Below, one piece after another: positions 24,702-29,017 of a stretch of 35,763 bases of DNA (the stretch's first letter is position 1; each line of letters opens with the position of its first letter). The notes beneath the pieces were generated by a model that saw only the letters and a program-made list of their open reading frames with translations, was not told the DNA's origin and ran no database searches. The DNA comes from a virus. The position numbers and the translations under genes were made by a program. The stretch lies in the UHGV virus genome UHGV-0260253; one strand, 5' to 3'.

Positions 24702-25024
24702 ACTTTCAGGCCTCTCTCATGTAACCAGTGAGTTGCACGCAGCCTTGCGTTTTCCTCACCGGCAAGCAGTGCGCGGATAATCCCGACCGCCTCGCTGTCG
24801 TCGTCCTTCACCGCGGTATGAAGCGTTATCCCCCGGGCCACGCCACGCTTTATCGTGATGACGCCTTTTTTCTCCAGTGCGCGAAGATGCTCCACCGCTG
24901 CATTCACTGAACGGTATCCCAGCATGGTTGCCACCTCCTGATTGGTTGGCGGGAAGCCACGTTCTTTCTGATAAGAAATCAGCATATCCAGCACCTGCTG
25001 CTGGCATTGAGTTAACGTCGTCAT
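24698..25024 (-). CDS. LexA N-terminal DNA-binding-domain protein (no peptidase domain)
   Basis: 108 aa; LTQCQQQVLDMLISYQKERGFPPTNQEVATMLGYRSVNAAVEHLRALEKKGVI aligns with the E. coli LexA N-terminal winged helix as recalled. No S24 Ser/Lys motifs. Confidence 0.7.
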   Translation of the reverse strand: MTTLTQCQQQVLDMLISYQKERGFPPTNQEVATMLGYRSVNAAVEHLRALEKKGVITIKRGVARGITLHTAVKDDDSEAVGIIRALLAGEENARLRATHWLHERGLKV

Positions 25025-25674
25025 GCCGCCATCTCCCTGACCAGTTTTTCTGCCTGCTGGCGAACCTGCGCCAGAAAGGCCTCACCACATGCCTCAAGTT
25101 CATCGCGCCCGATGTAGCTGATTGCCGGTCCCTTCCAGGTCTTGTCGAAAACAGCAATAGCACCAGCGAAGAAAGCGCCTGTCGGCACCTGCTTCTCATC
25201 CTTCGGGATAAACCAGGCAGGCAGTTCAAAACCAATACGCCCGCGAATAAAAGCAATATGATCTGCATCTTCCGGCCACCACACTTCGCTGGTGGCAGCT
25301 TTGATCAGGAAAACATAGCGCCCGCCTTTATCACGCATGGCACTGGCATGCTTCATGATGTAACGCATGCCGGTGATGTATTGCCCCTCATGCTGACTGG
25401 CGCGGCTGTATGGGGGATTACCAAAGGCAGCACCTTTAAGCTCCGCAAGGCGTTCTGACCAGTCATGCGCCAGCGCGTTGTCTTCCGCCGTGTAATACGC
25501 AGCACATTTGGCGTTATCACCGTCAGTGAACAGATCCAGAACAAACGGGCCAAACAGGGTGTTAATTCCCCAGAAAATGTTGTCCGGCGTGCGCCACTGA
25601 TCGCCCACTTCCTTCAGTTCATGGGCTGGTTTGTTCCGCAGTTCCACCAGCGCCTGGCAATATTTATTACTCAT
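25021..25674 (-). CDS. Phage Dam-like DNA N6-adenine methyltransferase
   Basis: Start at ATG 25672-25674 (MSNKYCQ...), TAATG-coupled to upstream gene; NPPY motif (AFGNPPYS). Confidence 0.8.
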   Translation of the reverse strand: MSNKYCQALVELRNKPAHELKEVGDQWRTPDNIFWGINTLFGPFVLDLFTDGDNAKCAAYYTAEDNALAHDWSERLAELKGAAFGNPPYSRASQHEGQYITGMRYIMKHASAMRDKGGRYVFLIKAATSEVWWPEDADHIAFIRGRIGFELPAWFIPKDEKQVPTGAFFAGAIAVFDKTWKGPAISYIGRDELEACGEAFLAQVRQQAEKLVREMAA

Positions 25675-26168
25675 TAAGCCCCCACGTAATTCCCTGAGAG
25701 ATACCACTCTTCACCTGATGCAGCCCGCTTACTGCTTTTCCGTAAACACCGTTCACGACGCGCCAGAAAATTGTTTCGTTCTGGCTGGGAGTGGCTTTCA
25801 CGGAATGCCGCCATCCACACCGTTGCAGCACGACGGTATAAGCCCCTGGACTCCAGTTCTTCCGCCTGGCGGGTCAGGCACAAAATCACCCGCGGGTCGT
25901 TAGTGCCGACATAGAAATTGCGCACAGGTCTGGTTTCACGAACTGGTTGTGGTTCCGGATCCTGCGCTCTCTCAGTCAGGCGCGGGAAATGTCTGCGTGT
26001 ATCTCCTTCACAACGGTGAGCCACACGCCCACTCTGACGTAACTTGCTTGCTGACTGCAGAACGCGCTGCCGTGAGTAACCAGCAAAAGCATCCGCAATG
26101 TCTCCGGAAGTACACCCCGGATGGGCTTCAATGAATTTCTGAACTTCATTCAAAAGACTCATAATCAC
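25674..26168 (-). CDS. Hypothetical protein with PerC-like C-terminal region
   Basis: 164 aa; ESRGLYRRAATVWMAAF resembles the PerC-family core as recalled; ATGA overlap with O-like gene. Confidence 0.4.
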   Translation of the reverse strand: MIMSLLNEVQKFIEAHPGCTSGDIADAFAGYSRQRVLQSASKLRQSGRVAHRCEGDTRRHFPRLTERAQDPEPQPVRETRPVRNFYVGTNDPRVILCLTRQAEELESRGLYRRAATVWMAAFRESHSQPERNNFLARRERCLRKSSKRAASGEEWYLSGNYVGA

Positions 26169-27106
26169 CCCCTGAATCCTGCCGGGATCTGGCTGTAGTC
26201 CACGTTGTCGTAACTGGATTTGAAGTACGGGTCTTCGCGTTTTTCGGTGTACGTGCTTACGGACGGCGATAAGCGCAGGGAAAGCTCATCCCATTTTTCC
26301 CGCAGCTTCGACGGGCTGAGCACGTTACGGCACCAGAACGGATCGCGGCTGACGCGGCTGTACATCTCGCAGATTTGTTTGTGAGTACGACCATCCTGCA
26401 CACACATCAGGCGAATTTCGTTTGCCCAGGCTGTCCAGTTTGGTTCTTTGGGACGAACCACCTCGCCGTCACATTCGGCGGCCTGCTCGTACAGGGCGAT
26501 GATTTTTTTCCAGAGCCACTGTGCACAGGTCAAATCATCCTGCGTTCCCCACTGGCGCTTTTTAGGGCTGAATACAACCGCATCAGGATGGCGAGTTAAA
26601 AAATCCTGTTCAGCCTTCTGCGTGTCCGGTTGCGAAGCGTCCGGACGAGAAGTTTTTTTATCTGACGGATCATGTTTTGATTTTACTGACGGATCCCCGC
26701 CAGATTCTGACGGGTGAAAACCCGCTTTTTTGCCAGATTTCGACGCATCAAATTTTGACGGGTCAGATTTTGATGCGTCAGATTTTGACGGGTCAGAATC
26801 TGACAGTTGAGAAAGTGCCGCTGCCTGAAGCTTTGCAACGTTAAGCTGATAGACGTTCGACGCATTGCGGTTACCCTGGCGACGCGCCTTACGCGTTAAC
26901 CAGCCTTCTGCTTCCAGCCGTGCGATAGCCGTTCTTACAGTACTCACCCCTGCGCCAATCTGGCGGGCAATGGTTTCAATTGATGGCCAGCACACACCTT
27001 CGTCATTACTGAAATCAGCCAGGCGGGCCATAATTGCCACGCTGGATAATTTCATGCCTGACGCTGCGCAACCATCCCATACATAGCCGGTTAATTTAGT
27101 GCTCAT
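26165..27106 (-). CDS. Replication initiator, O-like (N-terminal wHTH; iterons inside gene)
   Basis: 313 aa; N-terminal HTH region VSTVRTAIARLEAEGWLTRKA; central low-complexity DPSKSDASKSDPSKFDASKS encoded by the iteron array. Confidence 0.7.
   Translation of the reverse strand: MSTKLTGYVWDGCAASGMKLSSVAIMARLADFSNDEGVCWPSIETIARQIGAGVSTVRTAIARLEAEGWLTRKARRQGNRNASNVYQLNVAKLQAAALSQLSDSDPSKSDASKSDPSKFDASKSGKKAGFHPSESGGDPSVKSKHDPSDKKTSRPDASQPDTQKAEQDFLTRHPDAVVFSPKKRQWGTQDDLTCAQWLWKKIIALYEQAAECDGEVVRPKEPNWTAWANEIRLMCVQDGRTHKQICEMYSRVSRDPFWCRNVLSPSKLREKWDELSLRLSPSVSTYTEKREDPYFKSSYDNVDYSQIPAGFRG
26660..26808. repeat. Iteron array (candidate replication origin) with adjacent AT-rich stretch
   Basis: Eight copies of T(C/T)TGACGG-type motif at 26661, 26685, 26706, 26739, 26755, 26770, 26785, 26799; four tight 15-bp units TCAGATTTTGACGGG from 26747 to 26808. 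Confidence 0.65.
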
Positions 27107-27115
27107 GACCGACCT

Positions 27116-27454
27116 CTATTTCCCTGAATTTACGACGAAACTGTTCGAGCGGACTGAAGCATTCATGCTCATAACCTTCGCGGAGGTAGATAACCCGTTG
27201 TGTTTCCGGCTCCCAACGAATGACTCTGACGGGCACTCCGTAGTGATCTTTGAACCAGCGGTTAACTTGTCGCAAAGGACCGTCTCCTTCTGCCGGTTGA
27301 AATCACCCACAGCCCACTCTGCAAAGCTGTGGGTTACAATTTCCCTGTCACCTGGTACATTCACTGCATAGCAATATTCCACCTTCGCTTTTCCACCCGG
27401 TACAGGAAGCGCAATCAGTTGCGAGCGACGGTAGTGTGTTGTTAAACTGTTCAT
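27116..27454 (-). CDS. Hypothetical early-operon protein (112 aa)
   Basis: ATGA overlap with upstream gene, ends 9 nt before O-like start. Confidence 0.4.
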
Positions 27455-28020
27455 GCGTTAGTTTCTCCACAACCAGAAGCAATCGACGCCACGACGCCCG
27501 GAGCTGCACACTCGCGGGCGTCATTACTTTCTGAAATGCAAAAAATTTTGTAGACAAGTGCTGCATGCTCCTGCAGCTTCGAAATTGAGAGATACAGCTC
27601 GTCGTTAATTGCTGTCTTCTCATGCGGTTCCACTACACCGTCTTCGATTGCTGAACGAATCTGTTTTGAATAACTGCCGATCTGTTCAATGACTTCCAGC
27701 AGACGCTGGTTAATATCGGCGTTGTCCACATCCTCGACGTCAGGAAGCGACACAAAGACGCCATTTGCAGACTGCGCCACAGCATCAGCAATGAAGTGAG
27801 TGCCACCAGCACGCTGTAAAACCATTGCCCATCCCAGCGGGAAAATCTGATCGCCATCTGCACGAAGGCGGTTGAATAAAGCGTTTTCTGTTACATCGAG
27901 CCAGTCAGCCGCTTCAGCGTAACCACCCGGCAACGCCGCGATAGTTTTTCTGACAGCTTTCACGTACCACTCAGGCTGTTTTTCTATTTTCCAGTGATGC
28001 TTACCCACGATTAGCCTCAT
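27451..28020 (-). CDS. Putative CII-like / YdaT-like regulatory protein
   Basis: 189 aa directly downstream of cro-like gene; family assignment from memory only. Confidence 0.4.
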
Positions 28021-28051
28021 CGTTCTGTGGTTAAAAATTGAAAGTGTTCTG

Positions 28052-28252
28052 CTAATCTTTCGGATAGATATCCGGTCTTAAGTCAGATTTCGTAATTGCA
28101 CCTGACGTGCATTGCTCAAGTTTTTTAGCCAGCACAAAACTGGCTTTTTTATAGCCATTGAAAACCAGCCGTAAGTAGCCAGGTGTTGAGCCAACTTTTC
28201 CGGCCAACTCGCCCTGCTGTTCTTTGGTTAAAGAGTCCCAATACGCTTTCAT
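28052..28252 (-). CDS. Cro-like HTH repressor (YdaS-like)
   Basis: Internal start MKAYWDSLTKEQQGELAGKVGSTPGYLRLVFNG at ATG 28250-28252 with GGAGG SD; longer ORF would overlap cI start and operators. Confidence 0.7.
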   Translation of the reverse strand: MKAYWDSLTKEQQGELAGKVGSTPGYLRLVFNGYKKASFVLAKKLEQCTSGAITKSDLRPDIYPKD

Positions 28253-28257
28253 ACAAT

Positions 28258-28276
28258 ATGTACCTCCGGTATACAT
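28258..28276. promoter_or_regulatory. Operator-like site OR-a (ATGTACC-N7-TACAT)
   Basis: ATGTACCTCCGGTATACAT, inverted arms ATGTA/TACAT; overlaps pR -10 and cro leader; same architecture as the site in the pL-like promoter. Confidence 0.45.
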
Positions 28277-28302
28277 ATTACATGATTGAAATGAACCTTC
28301 AA
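28275..28302 (-). promoter_or_regulatory. pR-like promoter for cro operon
   Basis: Minus strand TTGAAG-N16-TAATAT upstream of cro-like gene. Confidence 0.45.
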
Positions 28303-28306
28303 GATA

Positions 28307-28327
28307 CTTGTACCTTAACGGTACAAG
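28307..28327. promoter_or_regulatory. Operator-like perfect palindrome OR-b
   Basis: CTTGTACC-TTAAC-GGTACAAG, 8-bp perfect inverted arms; overlaps -35 of the pRM-like promoter. Confidence 0.5.
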
Positions 28328-28336
28328 GGTTTTAAT
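28308..28336 (+). promoter_or_regulatory. pRM-like promoter for repressor (near-leaderless)
   Basis: TTGTAC-N17-TTTAAT ending 6 nt before the cI ATG at 28343; no SD, consistent with a leaderless transcript as for lambda cI. Confidence 0.4.
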
Positions 28337-28342
28337 TTCGTT

Positions 28343-29017
28343 ATGAAAACAATCCATGACATCCGGCGGTCTAACGCCAGAAAACTGAGAGATGGTGTTG
28401 GAGGGAATTCTTCCTTTGCCACTATGATTGATCGCGAGCCAACCCAGACCAGCAGGTTTATGGGAGATGGTGCTACTAAAAATATCGGTGACAGCATGGC
28501 ACGACACATCGAAAAATGTTTCGACCTGCCTGTCGGATGGCTCGATCAAGAACACCAGACAACGAACATCACAAAAAAACCTGATGTTTCAATCACTAAT
28601 AAACAAATCACATTAGTCCCTGTCATATCATGGGTACAGGCCGGAGCATGGAAAGAAGTTGGATATTCTGAGGTTGATTTGAGCACAGCAGAAACGTATC
28701 CCTGCCCTGTACCCTGTGGGGAAATGACTTATATCTTGCGGGTGATAGGTGATTCAATGATTGATGAGTACCGCCCGGGAGACATGATTTTTGTCGATCC
28801 TGAAGTACCTGCCTGCCACGGTGACGACGTTATTGCATTGATGCACGATACAGGTGAAACCACCTTCAAAAGGTTGATAGAAGATGGGACACAGCGTTAT
28901 CTCAAAGCGTTAAACCCAAACTGGCCTGAGCCTTACATTAAGATCAACGGTAATTGCTCTATAATTGGAACTGTGATTTTCTCAGGAAAACCAAGAAGAT
29001 ACAAAATCAAAGCCTAA
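28343..29017 (+). CDS. CI-like repressor (HTH plus S24 LexA-like peptidase domain)
   Basis: 224 aa; N-terminal HTH (ATKNIGDSMARHIEKCFDLPVGWLD), C-terminal autocleavage motifs VIGDSM (Ser) and TTFKRL (Lys). Confidence 0.85.
   Translation: MKTIHDIRRSNARKLRDGVGGNSSFATMIDREPTQTSRFMGDGATKNIGDSMARHIEKCFDLPVGWLDQEHQTTNITKKPDVSITNKQITLVPVISWVQAGAWKEVGYSEVDLSTAETYPCPVPCGEMTYILRVIGDSMIDEYRPGDMIFVDPEVPACHGDDVIALMHDTGETTFKRLIEDGTQRYLKALNPNWPEPYIKINGNCSIIGTVIFSGKPRRYKIKA

What the first reader, a model, noticed from the sequence alone, without database searches (positions are those of the whole stretch)
26649..26810. Iteron array and AT-rich segment inside the O-like gene: candidate replication origin
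At least eight copies of a TYTGACGG-type motif are present, with four tightly phased 15-bp units (TCAGATTTTGACGGG and variants) each with internal dyad symmetry, followed by an A+T-rich stretch at 26649-26690. This mirrors the lambda arrangement where ori iterons lie within the O coding sequence. No helicase loader gene (P or DnaC-like) follows, so the initiator may recruit host loading factors directly or via the adjacent 164-aa protein.
Basis: seen in the sequence. Interest (0 to 1): 0.45.

Follow-up and report, generated by a model that had tools for sequence, protein, structure and literature searches.

The report
Origin repeats inside phage initiator gene
A cluster of short palindromic DNA repeats plus an A+T-rich stretch, sitting in the part of a prophage replication-initiator gene that encodes a floppy linker, is kept unchanged at the DNA level across many related prophages. 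It is most likely the phage's replication origin, built like the one in phage lambda but belonging to a very common, unstudied type that carries no helicase-loader gene.

Summary
The window is an SfII-like lambdoid phage. Its O-like gene (26165-27106, minus strand) contains five tandem 15-bp units, a sixth dyad site and two half sites, followed in the gene direction by the most A+T-rich 40 bp of the gene.

All six matches to the 15-mer in the 35.8-kb window fall at 26701-26802. About 1.1 are expected by chance.

The real unit is a palindromic core, TCARAATCTGA. In 79 distinct relatives, synonymous sites are almost frozen across codons 99-161 (normalised entropy 0.24). They vary freely in the flanking N-terminal domain (0.82) and after codon 161 (0.71). 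The constraint is therefore on the DNA, not the peptide.

The repeats travel with the N-terminal winged-helix domain whatever C-terminal domain follows. Lambda O and phi80 gp15 share only the C-terminal domain and carry their own iterons at the same position.

The block coincides with a predicted disordered linker. Origin function is inferred, not shown.

No P-, DnaC- or DnaB-like gene follows. The adjacent PerC-like protein was detected in only 18 of 79 relatives, so it is not a likely loader.

The initiator ends in a motif that is invariant at the C-terminus of host DnaT (IPxGFRG). This is a lead for direct recruitment of host factors.

The parts
26165..27106 (-). O-like replication initiator gene (313 aa). 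It has an N-terminal winged helix, a disordered linker, a C-terminal domain like that of lambda O, and a C-terminal tail.
   Evidence: ORF listed. Matches PHROG 391 'replication initiation O-like' at E=2e-134 and Pfam HTH_36 at aa 23-70. Residues 131-277 are 36% identical to lambda O residues 139-270, E=5e-26. AlphaFold2 domain boundaries.
26801..27106 (-). Codons 1-102: N-terminal winged-helix DNA-binding domain, the presumed iteron-binding module.
   Evidence: AlphaFold2 pLDDT 72-88 with helices and a beta wing. Foldseek hits to MarR/ArsR/TFE winged-helix proteins, TM-score on target up to 0.66. Synonymous sites vary freely here, normalised entropy 0.82.
26624..26810 (.). Block constrained at the DNA level (codons 99-161). 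This is the candidate replication origin and coincides with the predicted disordered linker.
   Evidence: Normalised synonymous entropy is 0.24, against 0.82 in the N-terminal domain and 0.71 after codon 161; Mann-Whitney p=5.6e-22. pLDDT is below 50 for residues 103-161.
26733..26803 (.). Five tandem dyad-symmetric iterons with a 15-bp period. The 11-bp cores TCARAATCTGA (gene sense) are centred at 26798, 26783, 26768, 26753 and 26738.
   Evidence: Position weight matrix from 466 units in 79 loci: core positions carry 1.1-1.9 bits, the central three bases 0.3-0.7 bits. Copy number varies between close relatives.
26700..26710 (.). Sixth dyad site (+ strand CCAGATTCTGA), 33 bp from the array.
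   Evidence: The corresponding site is a perfect 17-bp palindrome, CCTCCAGAATCTGGAGG, in the distant relatives L082 and L076.
26711..26732 (.). Spacer with a conserved A-run and T-run (gene sense AAAAAAGCGGGTTTTCAC). A possible intrinsic bend.
   Evidence: A6-7 followed by N4-5 and TTTT is kept in the relatives shown. The F130 codon is TTT in 73 of 73 and the K126 codon is AAA in 42 of 47. The terminator-like hairpin seen here on the + strand cannot form in Klebsiella phage 1 LV-2017 (L002), the one relative checked by eye.
26661..26695 (.). Two half sites 24 bp apart (gene sense GATCCGTCAG), each containing a conserved GATC (Dam) site at 26667-26670 and 26691-26694.
   Evidence: Repeat family D6. 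D138 is GAT in 79 of 79 and D146 is GAT in 71 of 71, each followed by a CCN proline codon.
26650..26689 (.). The most A+T-rich 40 bp of the gene (27.5% G+C), including the T7 run at 26653-26659. Candidate DNA-unwinding region, downstream of the iterons in the direction of transcription.
   Evidence: The equivalent segment averages 35% G+C (sd 3%) in 79 relatives, against a gene mean of 52%. In lambda O the lowest-G+C 40-mer is at codon 146, directly after the iterons.
26624..26652 (.). G+C-rich flank that is also constrained at the DNA level (gene sense TCTCGTCCGGACGCTTCGCAACCGGAC).
   Evidence: Frozen codons in this stretch: TGT 55 of 55, GTT 40 of 41, GCG 34 of 34, GAC 66 of 66. Direct repeat GTCCGG...GTCCGG 15 bp apart, family D11.
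26258..26623 (-). Codons 162-283: C-terminal domain homologous to those of lambda O and phi80 gp15.
   Evidence: pLDDT 81-93.
26168..26194 (-). Codons 305-313, SQIPAGFRG at the extreme C-terminus: a DnaT-like terminal motif.
   Evidence: BLASTP gives 8 of 9 identical to the C-terminus of E. coli DnaT. hhalign aligns only this tail. The motif IPxGFRG is invariant in 105 DnaT clusters.
25674..26168 (-). Adjacent 164-aa PerC-type protein (YfdN-like). Probably a transcription regulator and not part of the origin machinery.
   Evidence: Pfam PerC. PHROG 1324 'transcriptional activator'. A window-like homolog detected in 18 of 79 relatives.

Best explanation
The region at about 26624-26810 is the phage's origin of replication (ori), embedded in the linker-coding part of its own initiator gene, as in lambda, phi80 and P22.

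**Proposed mechanism.**
1. Rightward early transcription produces the 313-aa initiator.
2. Its N-terminal winged-helix domain binds the palindromic TCARAATCTGA sites: five at 15-bp spacing, one more 33 bp away, and two GATC-bearing half sites.
3. This builds a nucleoprotein complex that destabilises the adjacent A+T-rich 40 bp at 26650-26689.
4. The C-terminal domain and tail then bring in the host helicase. The phage has no P-, DnaC- or DnaB-like gene, so recruitment must use host factors.

**Shown here:**
- the repeats and their non-random clustering;
- purifying selection acting on the DNA itself;
- co-inheritance of the repeats with the N-terminal domain;
- positional equivalence to the lambda and phi80 origins;
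- absence of a loader gene.

**Inferred:** binding of the initiator to the repeats, DNA unwinding, origin activity, and the route of helicase loading.
For: **Clustering beyond chance.**
- All 6 matches to the 15-mer in the window lie at 26701-26802, against 1.1 expected.
- Core density is 33 per kb in the linker, against 0.01 per kb in the other 420 kb of related loci.

**DNA-level selection.**
- In 79 distinct genes, normalised synonymous entropy is 0.24 in codons 99-161. It is 0.82 in codons 1-97 and 0.71 after codon 161 (p=5.6e-22).
- Serine codons in the block are mostly TCA or TCT (1050 of 1265), while all six serine codons are used in the N-terminal domain.
- At the main repeat and AT-segment columns lysine is always AAA; only three spacer or flank lysine columns show rare AAG. 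V141 is GTA in 77 of 77.

**Periodic pattern within each unit.**
- The palindromic core is fixed, while the central codon varies in both bases and amino acid (P, A, T, G, R and others).
- Yersinia phage YeP2, for example, has GACGGGTCA (D-G-S) where the window has GACCCGTCA (D-P-S).
- A periodic pattern of fixed and variable positions fits site-specific constraint, not recent shared ancestry.

**Modularity.**
- The repeats follow the N-terminal domain into proteins with four different C-terminal domains: lambda-O-like, Phg_2220_C, phiP27 type and type D.
- Lambda O and phi80 gp15 share the C-terminal domain but carry their own iterons. These lie at codons 117-145 in lambda and about 122-147 in phi80. 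The window has its repeats at codons 100-150.

**Other support.**
- The block matches a predicted disordered linker, where coding constraints are weakest.
- The N-terminal domain has a winged-helix fold like the MarR/ArsR DNA binders.
- The lowest-G+C 40-mer follows the repeats in the direction of transcription, as in lambda, and this A+T-richness is kept in all relatives.
- Copy number changes by whole 15-bp units among 99%-identical prophages.
Against: - There is no experimental evidence for binding or origin activity in this phage group. The SfII GenBank record annotates no origin.
- The A+T-rich segment is modest: 27.5-31% G+C, against 20-25% in lambda. It is only the 5th percentile of the window.
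- A 15-bp spacing with nearly abutting sites differs from the 20-24 bp spacing in lambda. It leaves open whether monomers or dimers bind.
- All copies are in one reading frame. A contribution from selection on the peptide cannot be fully excluded, for example at ESGGDPSV.
- The synonymous-site statistic treats alignment columns as independent, and the sequences are related.
- No DnaA boxes lie within the block, and no loader gene is present. The step after initiator binding is therefore unexplained.
Confidence: 0.8

Rival explanations
1. The repeats bind the initiator but act mainly as a control element rather than as the site of initiation. Possible roles are autoregulation of the gene, copy-number control by handcuffing, or incompatibility. 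The true origin would lie elsewhere.
For: The evidence for DNA-level constraint and for co-inheritance with the DNA-binding domain would fit any site bound by this protein. Plasmid Rep proteins use iterons and inverted repeats for control as well as for initiation (established knowledge).
Against: - The core motif occurs essentially nowhere else: 0.01 per kb in 420 kb of flanking prophage DNA, which extends only 2.5 kb on each side of the gene, and no other 15-mer match in the window. No second set of binding sites exists to serve as an origin.
- The array is followed by a conserved A+T-rich segment at the same gene position as the proven origins of lambda and phi80.
Confidence: 0.1
2. The repeats are only a low-complexity protein linker, made of pentapeptide repeats DPSKS/DASKS produced by slippage. 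They have no function as DNA.
For: - All eight copies are spaced by multiples of 3 and encode a repeated peptide.
- The region is predicted to be disordered.
- Copy number varies.
Against: - Synonymous sites are frozen in the linker but free in the structured N-terminal domain of the same genes.
- The amino acid at the centre of each unit varies freely while the surrounding bases do not.
- The conserved bases form palindromes, including a perfect 17-bp palindrome in distant relatives.
- A disordered linker under protein-level selection alone should be the least conserved part of the gene, not the most conserved.
Confidence: 0.04
3. The DNA-level conservation reflects something other than protein binding at an origin. 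Candidates are an overlapping gene in another frame, an RNA structure, or a conserved 'linker' sequence that promotes recombination between modules.
For: - An antisense frame is open across the block in 29 of 79 loci.
- The single strand folds better than shuffles, z=-4.3.
- The block sits at the junction where C-terminal domains are exchanged.
Against: - No alternative frame stays open in all relatives. The best is open in 29 of 79 loci and is interrupted by stop codons in the rest.
- Rfam finds only a sub-threshold, spurious miRNA hairpin.
- The fold is a by-product of tandem palindromes, and the unpaired AAAA bases are equally frozen.
- A recombination linker would not need a 15-bp periodic pattern of fixed and free positions, nor a variable copy number.
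Confidence: 0.04

Closest known systems
Phage lambda ori with O protein (ori-lambda inside gene O)
   Same: [quoted passage not shown]
- The lowest-G+C stretch follows in the direction of transcription.
- The C-terminal domains are homologous, 36% identity, E=5e-26.
   Different: - The N-terminal domain is unrelated in sequence: HTH_36 winged helix, with no Phage_rep_O match.
- The iteron sequence differs: TCARAATCTGA against ATCCCTCAAAACGAGGGA.
- There are five sites at 15-bp steps, plus one full site and two half sites, instead of four at 20-24 bp.
- The A+T-rich part is less extreme.
- No P gene follows.
- The lambda-type tail (…NTDWIYGVDL) is replaced by a DnaT-like tail.
Phage phi80 ori with gp15 and gp14
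   Same: Four annotated gp15 binding sites lie inside gene 15 at the same relative position. The C-terminal domain is 36% identical to that of the window protein.
   Different: The N-terminal domain and the iterons (TTCCCGAAAACGG type) are different. phi80 has the P-like gp14, which the window lacks.
'O-only' lambdoid replication modules (phage LLS and 34 of 314 lambdoid phages; Genome Res 2025, PMC12315714)
   Same: [quoted passage not shown] The paper states that replication of this type is not understood. mEp460_4F5 (LR595868) matches 77% of the 25600-27500 query at 97% identity. The paper names that phage as the closest relative of two LLS-encoded proteins, 89% and 78% identical.
   Different: In the passages read, that paper does not describe an origin or iterons for these phages.
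Iteron origins of plasmids with winged-helix Rep proteins (pPS10 RepA, F RepE, R6K pi)
   Same: A winged-helix initiator, tandem iterons next to an A+T-rich region, and dependence on host helicase and loader (established knowledge).
   Different: Plasmid iterons are typically about 19-22 bp, lie outside the rep gene and are accompanied by DnaA boxes. Here the sites lie inside the gene at 15-bp steps, and no DnaA box is in the block. No sequence homology to these Rep families was found.
E. coli DnaT (primosomal protein I)
   Same: The extreme C-terminal motif is shared: DnaT ends …PDSQIPPGFRG and the window protein ends …VDYSQIPAGFRG. The motif is invariant in DnaT orthologs and recurs at the C-terminus of most relatives of the window protein.
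   Different: There is no homology to the DnaT DNA-binding domain. Pfam PF17948 is not matched, and hhalign aligns only 13 tail columns at 9.8% probability.

Membership tests
Lambdoid-phage origin embedded in the initiator (O-type) gene | Four or more direct repeats (iterons) with internal dyad symmetry inside the initiator gene | tested here: met
   Five tandem dyad sites, one further site and two half sites at 26661-26803.
Lambdoid-phage origin embedded in the initiator (O-type) gene | Iterons lie in the segment that encodes the linker between the DNA-binding N-terminal domain and the C-terminal domain | tested here: met
   The repeats occupy codons 100-150, and the AlphaFold2 disordered linker is 103-161. 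Lambda has them at codons 117-145 and phi80 at about 122-147.
Lambdoid-phage origin embedded in the initiator (O-type) gene | A+T-rich region next to the iterons, on the downstream side in the direction of transcription | tested here: met
   26650-26689 is the lowest-G+C 40-mer of the gene (27.5%), located at codon 140. It is weaker than in lambda (20%). The feature is kept in 79 relatives: 35% against a gene mean of 52%.
Lambdoid-phage origin embedded in the initiator (O-type) gene | Iteron sequence co-varies with the N-terminal domain of the initiator, not with its C-terminal domain | tested here: met
   The same core follows this N-terminal domain into four C-terminal domain types. Lambda and phi80 share the C-terminal domain but have other iterons, with 0 cores in the lambda locus. 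Finer covariation within the family is confounded by phylogeny.
Lambdoid-phage origin embedded in the initiator (O-type) gene | The DNA sequence itself is under selection beyond what the protein requires | tested here: met
   Synonymous entropy 0.24 against 0.82 and 0.71.
Lambdoid-phage origin embedded in the initiator (O-type) gene | The initiator protein binds the iterons, and the fragment supports autonomous replication | not testable with these tools
   Needs a gel-shift (EMSA) or footprinting assay and a minimal-replicon test.
Lambda O protein family | N-terminal domain of the Phage_rep_O type (Pfam PF04492) | tested here: not met
   Pfam gives HTH_36, GntR-like and MarR-like winged-helix hits only. 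BLASTP against lambda O aligns only residues 131-277.
Lambda O protein family | C-terminal domain homologous to that of lambda O | tested here: met
   36% identity over 149 residues, E=5e-26. Also 36% identity to phi80 gp15.
Lambda-type O-P replication module | A helicase-loader gene (P) or a DnaC- or DnaB-like gene directly downstream of the initiator | tested here: not met
   The downstream genes are PerC-like, Dam, a LexA-type DNA-binding domain protein and RusA. 70 of 79 relatives have no P-, DnaC- or DnaB-like gene within 2.5 kb.
DnaT (primosomal protein I), the label given to this protein in several GenBank records | DnaT DNA-binding three-helix domain (Pfam PF17948) | tested here: not met
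   No Pfam hit even at E<=10. hhalign aligns only the tail.
DnaT (primosomal protein I), the label given to this protein in several GenBank records | Conserved extreme C-terminal motif IPxGFRG | tested here: met
   The window protein ends SQIPAGFRG and DnaT ends SQIPPGFRG. The motif is invariant in 105 DnaT clusters.
Helicase loader role for the adjacent 164-aa protein | Similarity to P, to DnaC or DnaI (AAA+ ATPases) or to DciA, and obligatory co-occurrence with the initiator | tested here: not met
   Pfam PerC, NCBIfam ANR-like regulator and PHROG 'transcriptional activator'. A window-like homolog detected in 18 of 79 relatives.

The most novel reading that the evidence does not exclude
This origin belongs to a loader-less ('O-only') replication module in which the initiator recruits the host helicase machinery directly. 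It would do so through a C-terminal short linear motif copied from, or convergent with, the invariant tail of the host restart protein DnaT (…PD..IPxGFRG-COOH).

The phage initiator would then act as a sequence-specific DnaT mimic. It would dock on whatever the DnaT tail docks on (DnaC-DnaB, PriA or another partner) at a double-stranded origin.

If true, the phage protein would give a handle on the unsolved question of how DnaT hands over to DnaB-DnaC. It would also explain how a prophage module found in about 29% of complete E. coli genomes replicates.
Probability: 0.3. Interest if true: 0.7.

Novelty: new variant of a known kind. Interest (0 to 1): 0.45.

Why it matters
An origin embedded in its own initiator gene is textbook lambda biology, so the principle is not new.

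This version is nevertheless worth recording, for these reasons:
- It has a different DNA-binding fold, a new iteron sequence and unusually tight 15-bp spacing.
- It belongs to the 'O-only' module, which a 2025 survey called experimentally unstudied and not understood (PMC12315714).
- The gene is present, with at least 80% coverage, in 1576 of 5426 complete E. coli genomes. In the eight listed records the feature under the match is named only 'helix-turn-helix domain-containing protein', or 'hypothetical protein' in one record. Many prophage annotations therefore lack both the initiator label and the origin.

Defining the origin has practical uses:
- minimal-replicon and footprinting experiments become straightforward;
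- it gives a sequence signature, a TCARAATCTGA array, for annotating such origins;
- together with the DnaT-like tail, it offers a testable route to how a phage loads DnaB without its own loader.

Tried and rejected
**Overlapping gene.** No alternative reading frame stays open across the block in all relatives. The best is open in 29 of 79.

**Known RNA family.** Rfam at E<=1 gives only a spurious, sub-threshold miRNA hairpin caused by the palindromes.

**DnaA-dependent origin.** No DnaA box with up to 1 mismatch lies inside the block. The nearest are at 27463, 27722 and 28026.

**Internal promoter or terminator.** No sigma-70-like promoter was found in 25600-28400. A terminator-like hairpin lies on the + strand at 26711-26724. 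In Klebsiella phage 1 LV-2017 (L002), the one relative checked by eye, the matching sequence cannot form the stem.

**Homology of the C-terminal domain to the DnaT DNA-binding domain.** Rejected by Pfam and by hhalign; only the tail matches.

**Solved structures by sequence.** Only weak MarR-type hits to the N-terminal domain, and nothing for the C-terminal domain or the tail.

**The PerC-like 164-aa protein as loader.** Rejected.

**Fine covariation between iteron variants and N-terminal residues.** The TCTGT variant in Providencia and Proteus prophages coincides with four discriminating residues. The grouping is confounded by phylogeny, so the result is inconclusive.

**Literature.**
- The SfV genome paper (Allison et al. 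2002, PMC134923) is not held, so I could not check whether it already mentions these repeats.
- The SfIV paper mentions a replication module but no origin.
- The Eru paper on Stx phages mentions no iterons.
- No paper in the library links the DnaT tail to phage initiators.
Full report
**Context**

The window is a lambdoid temperate phage of the SfII/SfIV type. Bases 25600-27500 are 98% identical to Escherichia phage vB_EcoM-720R4 and Shigella phage SfII. The local gene order on the minus strand is:
- Cro-like and cII-like genes;
- a 112-aa DUF4222 protein;
- a 313-aa 'O protein family' gene (26165-27106);
- a 164-aa PerC-type protein;
- Dam, a LexA-type DNA-binding domain protein and RusA.

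The divergent cI gene lies on the plus strand at 28343-29017. The finding lies inside the 313-aa gene.

**Checking the observation**

Tandem Repeats Finder reports 26734-26797 with period 15 (4.3 copies) and period 30. The repeat finder adds an in-register copy at 26698-26720 and a 24-bp-spaced pair at 26657-26695. Reading the sequence gives eight TGAC-type cores, at 26663, 26687, 26708, 26741, 26756, 26771, 26786 and 26801.

The 15-mer consensus with up to three mismatches occurs six times in the 35.8-kb window, all within 26701-26802. Shuffles give 1.1 on average and never six.

The stretch 26649-26690 is 31% G+C. It is the lowest in the gene but only the 5th percentile of the window. The lowest 40-mer of the gene is 26650-26689, at 27.5%.

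**The real repeat unit**

In gene orientation the array reads TCTGAC-NNN-TCAAAA, repeated. A position weight matrix built from 466 units in 79 related loci shows where the information lies:
- It is concentrated in TCA-A/G-AA-TCTGA (1.1-1.9 bits per position).
- The three bases between cores carry 0.3-0.7 bits.

The core is an 11-bp palindrome. The copy at 26793-26803 is the perfect TCAGAATCTGA. In distant relatives the site extends to a perfect 17-bp palindrome, CCTCCAGAATCTGGAGG.

In window coordinates the core centres are 26798, 26783, 26768, 26753, 26738 and 26705. Two half sites, GATCCGTCAG in gene sense, lie at 26661-26671 and 26685-26695. A run of seven T (+ strand) follows at 26653-26659.

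**DNA element or peptide repeat?**

All copies are in one reading frame and encode DPSKS/DASKS-type pentapeptides, so this question had to be tested. I fetched 80 genomic loci that encode the same N-terminal domain at 52-99% identity, mostly Enterobacterales prophages. With four phage records added, I built a codon alignment of 79 distinct genes. For columns where the amino acid is conserved:

| Region | Normalised synonymous-codon entropy |
|---|---|
| Codons 1-97 | 0.82 |
| Codons 99-161 | 0.24 |
| After codon 161 | 0.71 |

The Mann-Whitney test gives p=5.6e-22.

Further details from the same alignment:
- Serine in the repeats is TCA or TCT almost without exception, for example 74 of 74 and 71 of 72. 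The N-terminal domain of the same genes uses all six serine codons.
- At the repeat and AT-segment columns lysine is always AAA, with rare AAG only in the spacer. D138 is GAT in 79 of 79 and V141 is GTA in 77 of 77.
- The amino acid at the centre of each unit varies (P, A, T, G, R, L and others). Yersinia phage YeP2 has GACGGGTCA where the window has GACCCGTCA, so proline becomes glycine while the half sites are kept.

This interleaving of frozen and free positions every 15 bp argues for site-specific selection on the DNA. It argues against both recent common ancestry and peptide-level selection.

No alternative reading frame stays open across the block in all relatives, and Rfam finds nothing real. 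The constrained block runs from codon 99 to codon 161, that is 26624-26810.

**Protein architecture**

AlphaFold2, run with a 53-sequence alignment, gives these segments:
- a confident N-terminal winged helix (residues 1-102);
- a disordered segment (103-161, pLDDT below 50);
- a confident helical C-terminal domain (162-283);
- a low-confidence tail.

Foldseek matches the N-terminal domain to MarR/ArsR/TFE-type winged-helix DNA binders. The constrained DNA block therefore coincides with the disordered linker. That is where a cis-acting element can be accommodated with least cost to the protein.

**Comparison with proven origins**

Residues 131-277 are 36% identical to lambda O residues 139-270 (E=5e-26), and residues 169-278 are 36% identical to phi80 gp15. 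The N-terminal domains are unrelated: this protein matches Pfam HTH_36 and has no Phage_rep_O match.

The four lambda iterons, ATCCCTCAAAACGAGGGA, lie at codons 117-145 of O. The four annotated gp15 binding sites of phi80 lie at about codons 122-147 of gene 15. In lambda O the lowest-G+C 40-mer starts at codon 146, and in the window gene at codon 140.

Conversely, the TCARAATCTGA array follows this N-terminal domain into proteins with four different C-terminal domains:
- type A, lambda-O-like: 16 loci;
- type B, Pfam Phg_2220_C: 58 loci;
- type C, phiP27-like: 2 loci;
- type D: 2 loci.

The core occurs at 33 per kb in the linker and at 0.01 per kb in the remaining 420 kb of these loci. It is absent from the lambda locus. 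The repeats thus segregate with the DNA-binding module, exactly as expected for cognate iterons.

The 45-nt A+T-rich segment is 35% G+C (sd 3%) in all relatives, against 52% for the genes as a whole. Among 80 nearly identical prophages, protein length changes only in steps of five residues (303, 308, 313, 318, 323), which corresponds to whole 15-bp units; one further copy is truncated at 145 aa.

**Most likely mechanism**

The block is the phage origin. The initiator's winged-helix domain binds the array. The complex strains the adjacent A+T-rich 40 bp. The C-terminal part then brings in the helicase.

The repeat structure, the DNA-level selection, the modular co-inheritance and the positional equivalence are shown. 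Binding, unwinding and origin activity are inferred. I put this at 0.8. The main rival is that the sites serve only for control and the origin lies elsewhere. This is unlikely, because no other copies of the motif exist in the window or in the 2.5-kb flanks of the relatives.

**The missing loader**

Of the 79 relatives, 70 have no P-, DnaC- or DnaB-like gene within 2.5 kb. Seven have a DnaC-like gene, two of them together with a DnaB-like gene, and two have a lambda-P homolog.

A 2025 survey made the same point for phage LLS and for 34 of 314 lambdoid phages. It states that replication of this type is not understood (PMC12315714).

The adjacent 164-aa protein is a PerC/ANR-type regulator. A window-like homolog was detected in only 18 of 79 relatives, so it is not a plausible obligatory loader.

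**A lead on host-factor recruitment**

The initiator ends in …VDYSQIPAGFRG. E. coli DnaT ends in …PDSQIPPGFRG.
- In 105 full-length DnaT clusters, the positions I, P, G, F, R and G of this tail are 99-100% conserved, while neighbouring positions vary.
- By a strict pattern, 38 of the 79 relatives end in the same tail: 5 of type A, 31 of type B and both of type D. More carry looser GFR[GST] endings such as …ENSGFRS. In others it is replaced by an alternative W..IW-type ending.
- The relative that is followed by a P homolog and has the lambda-type C-terminal domain (L076) instead carries a lambda-like …NTDW… tail.
- A DnaT variant ending …PDKAIPKGFRGAK is mirrored by prophage initiators ending …PDKAIPAGFRGAK.
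- There is no homology to the DnaT DNA-binding domain.

How DnaT recruits DnaB-DnaC is stated to be unknown (PMC13377028 and PMC4132743). The tail is therefore a candidate docking motif for a host replication partner. This is a hypothesis only.

**Novelty and score**

The principle, an origin inside the initiator gene, is long known. The new elements are:
- the specificity class, with a winged-helix HTH_36 domain, the TCARAATCTGA core and 15-bp steps;
- the demonstration of DNA-level selection;
- the association with the loader-less module.

The gene is present in 1576 of 5426 complete E. coli genomes. In the eight listed records it is named only 'helix-turn-helix domain-containing protein', or 'hypothetical protein' in one record. 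I could not read the SfV genome paper, which may already mention the repeats.

I rate this a new variant of a known kind, with interest 0.45.

Noticed in passing
window 26168-26194 (codons 305-313 of the initiator); L166:4979-5518 (E. coli dnaT): The initiator ends in SQIPAGFRG, 8 of 9 identical to the extreme C-terminus of host DnaT (SQIPPGFRG). The motif IPxGFRG is invariant in 105 DnaT clusters. It closes many related 'O-only' initiators of different C-terminal domain types. A DnaT tail variant (…PDKAIPKGFRGAK) is mirrored in some prophage initiators (L032, L034). This probably explains the GenBank label 'primosomal protein I'.
   Followed up: partly
window 26667-26670 and 26691-26694; Dam gene 25021-25707: Two GATC sites 24 bp apart inside the A+T-rich part of the candidate origin are conserved across relatives. 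The GAT aspartate codons are fixed in 79 of 79 and 71 of 71, each followed by a CCN proline codon. A Dam-type methyltransferase gene lies just downstream in the window and in most relatives. This suggests methylation-dependent control of the origin, as at oriC and the P1 origin.
   Followed up: partly
window 27463-27471, 27722-27730, 28026-28034: Three one-mismatch DnaA boxes lie within 570 bp, in and next to the cII-like gene upstream of the initiator. The whole window has 13 such matches, against 7.4 expected by chance. None lies in the repeat block.
   Followed up: no
window 26711-26732: The spacer between the tandem array and the sixth site has a conserved A6-7 run followed by a TTTT run, a possible intrinsic bend. 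On the + strand it scores as a terminator-like hairpin (CGGGTGAAAACCCG followed by a T-run). In the one relative checked by eye (L002), the stem cannot form.
   Followed up: partly
window 27116-27454 (minus strand): A 112-aa DUF4222 / PHROG 1170 protein of unknown function sits between the cII-like gene and the initiator. It was detected in 39 of 79 related loci.
   Followed up: no
L055, L057, L064, L065, L068, L071 (Providencia and Proteus prophages): A variant iteron core, TCAAAATCTGT instead of …TCTGA, coincides with four group-specific residues in the N-terminal domain (window positions 43, 62, 73 and 74). This may be specificity covariation, but it is confounded by phylogeny.
   Followed up: partly
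L082 and L084 (distant relatives, 52-53% identity in the N-terminal domain): L082 carries a 33-bp tandem repeat (GAACCTCCAGTATTTAGAGCCACAAGTGGACTT, three copies) in place of the 15-bp array; L084 has a shorter, more degenerate version. Both keep the flanking palindrome CCTCCAGAATCTGGAGG or close variants of it and the two GATCC half sites. Both are followed by a DnaC-like gene.
   Followed up: no
L015 (Vagococcus sp.), L038 (Chryseobacterium sp.), L039 (Martelella alba); Elizabethkingia phage EKP1 (H38): Three assemblies labelled as non-Enterobacterales organisms (L015, L038, L039) carry initiator N-terminal domains 82-89% identical to the enterobacterial ones. Elizabethkingia phage EKP1 matches at 63% over residues 1-92. 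This looks like contamination or mislabelling rather than true host range.
   Followed up: no
window 25600-26240 compared with Stx2c-converting phages (H16-H30): The Dam and PerC-like genes and the last 33 codons of the initiator, which include the DnaT-like tail, are 97-98% identical to Stx2c and Stx2a phages whose replication protein is otherwise different. A recombination joint therefore lies just upstream of the tail.
   Followed up: no
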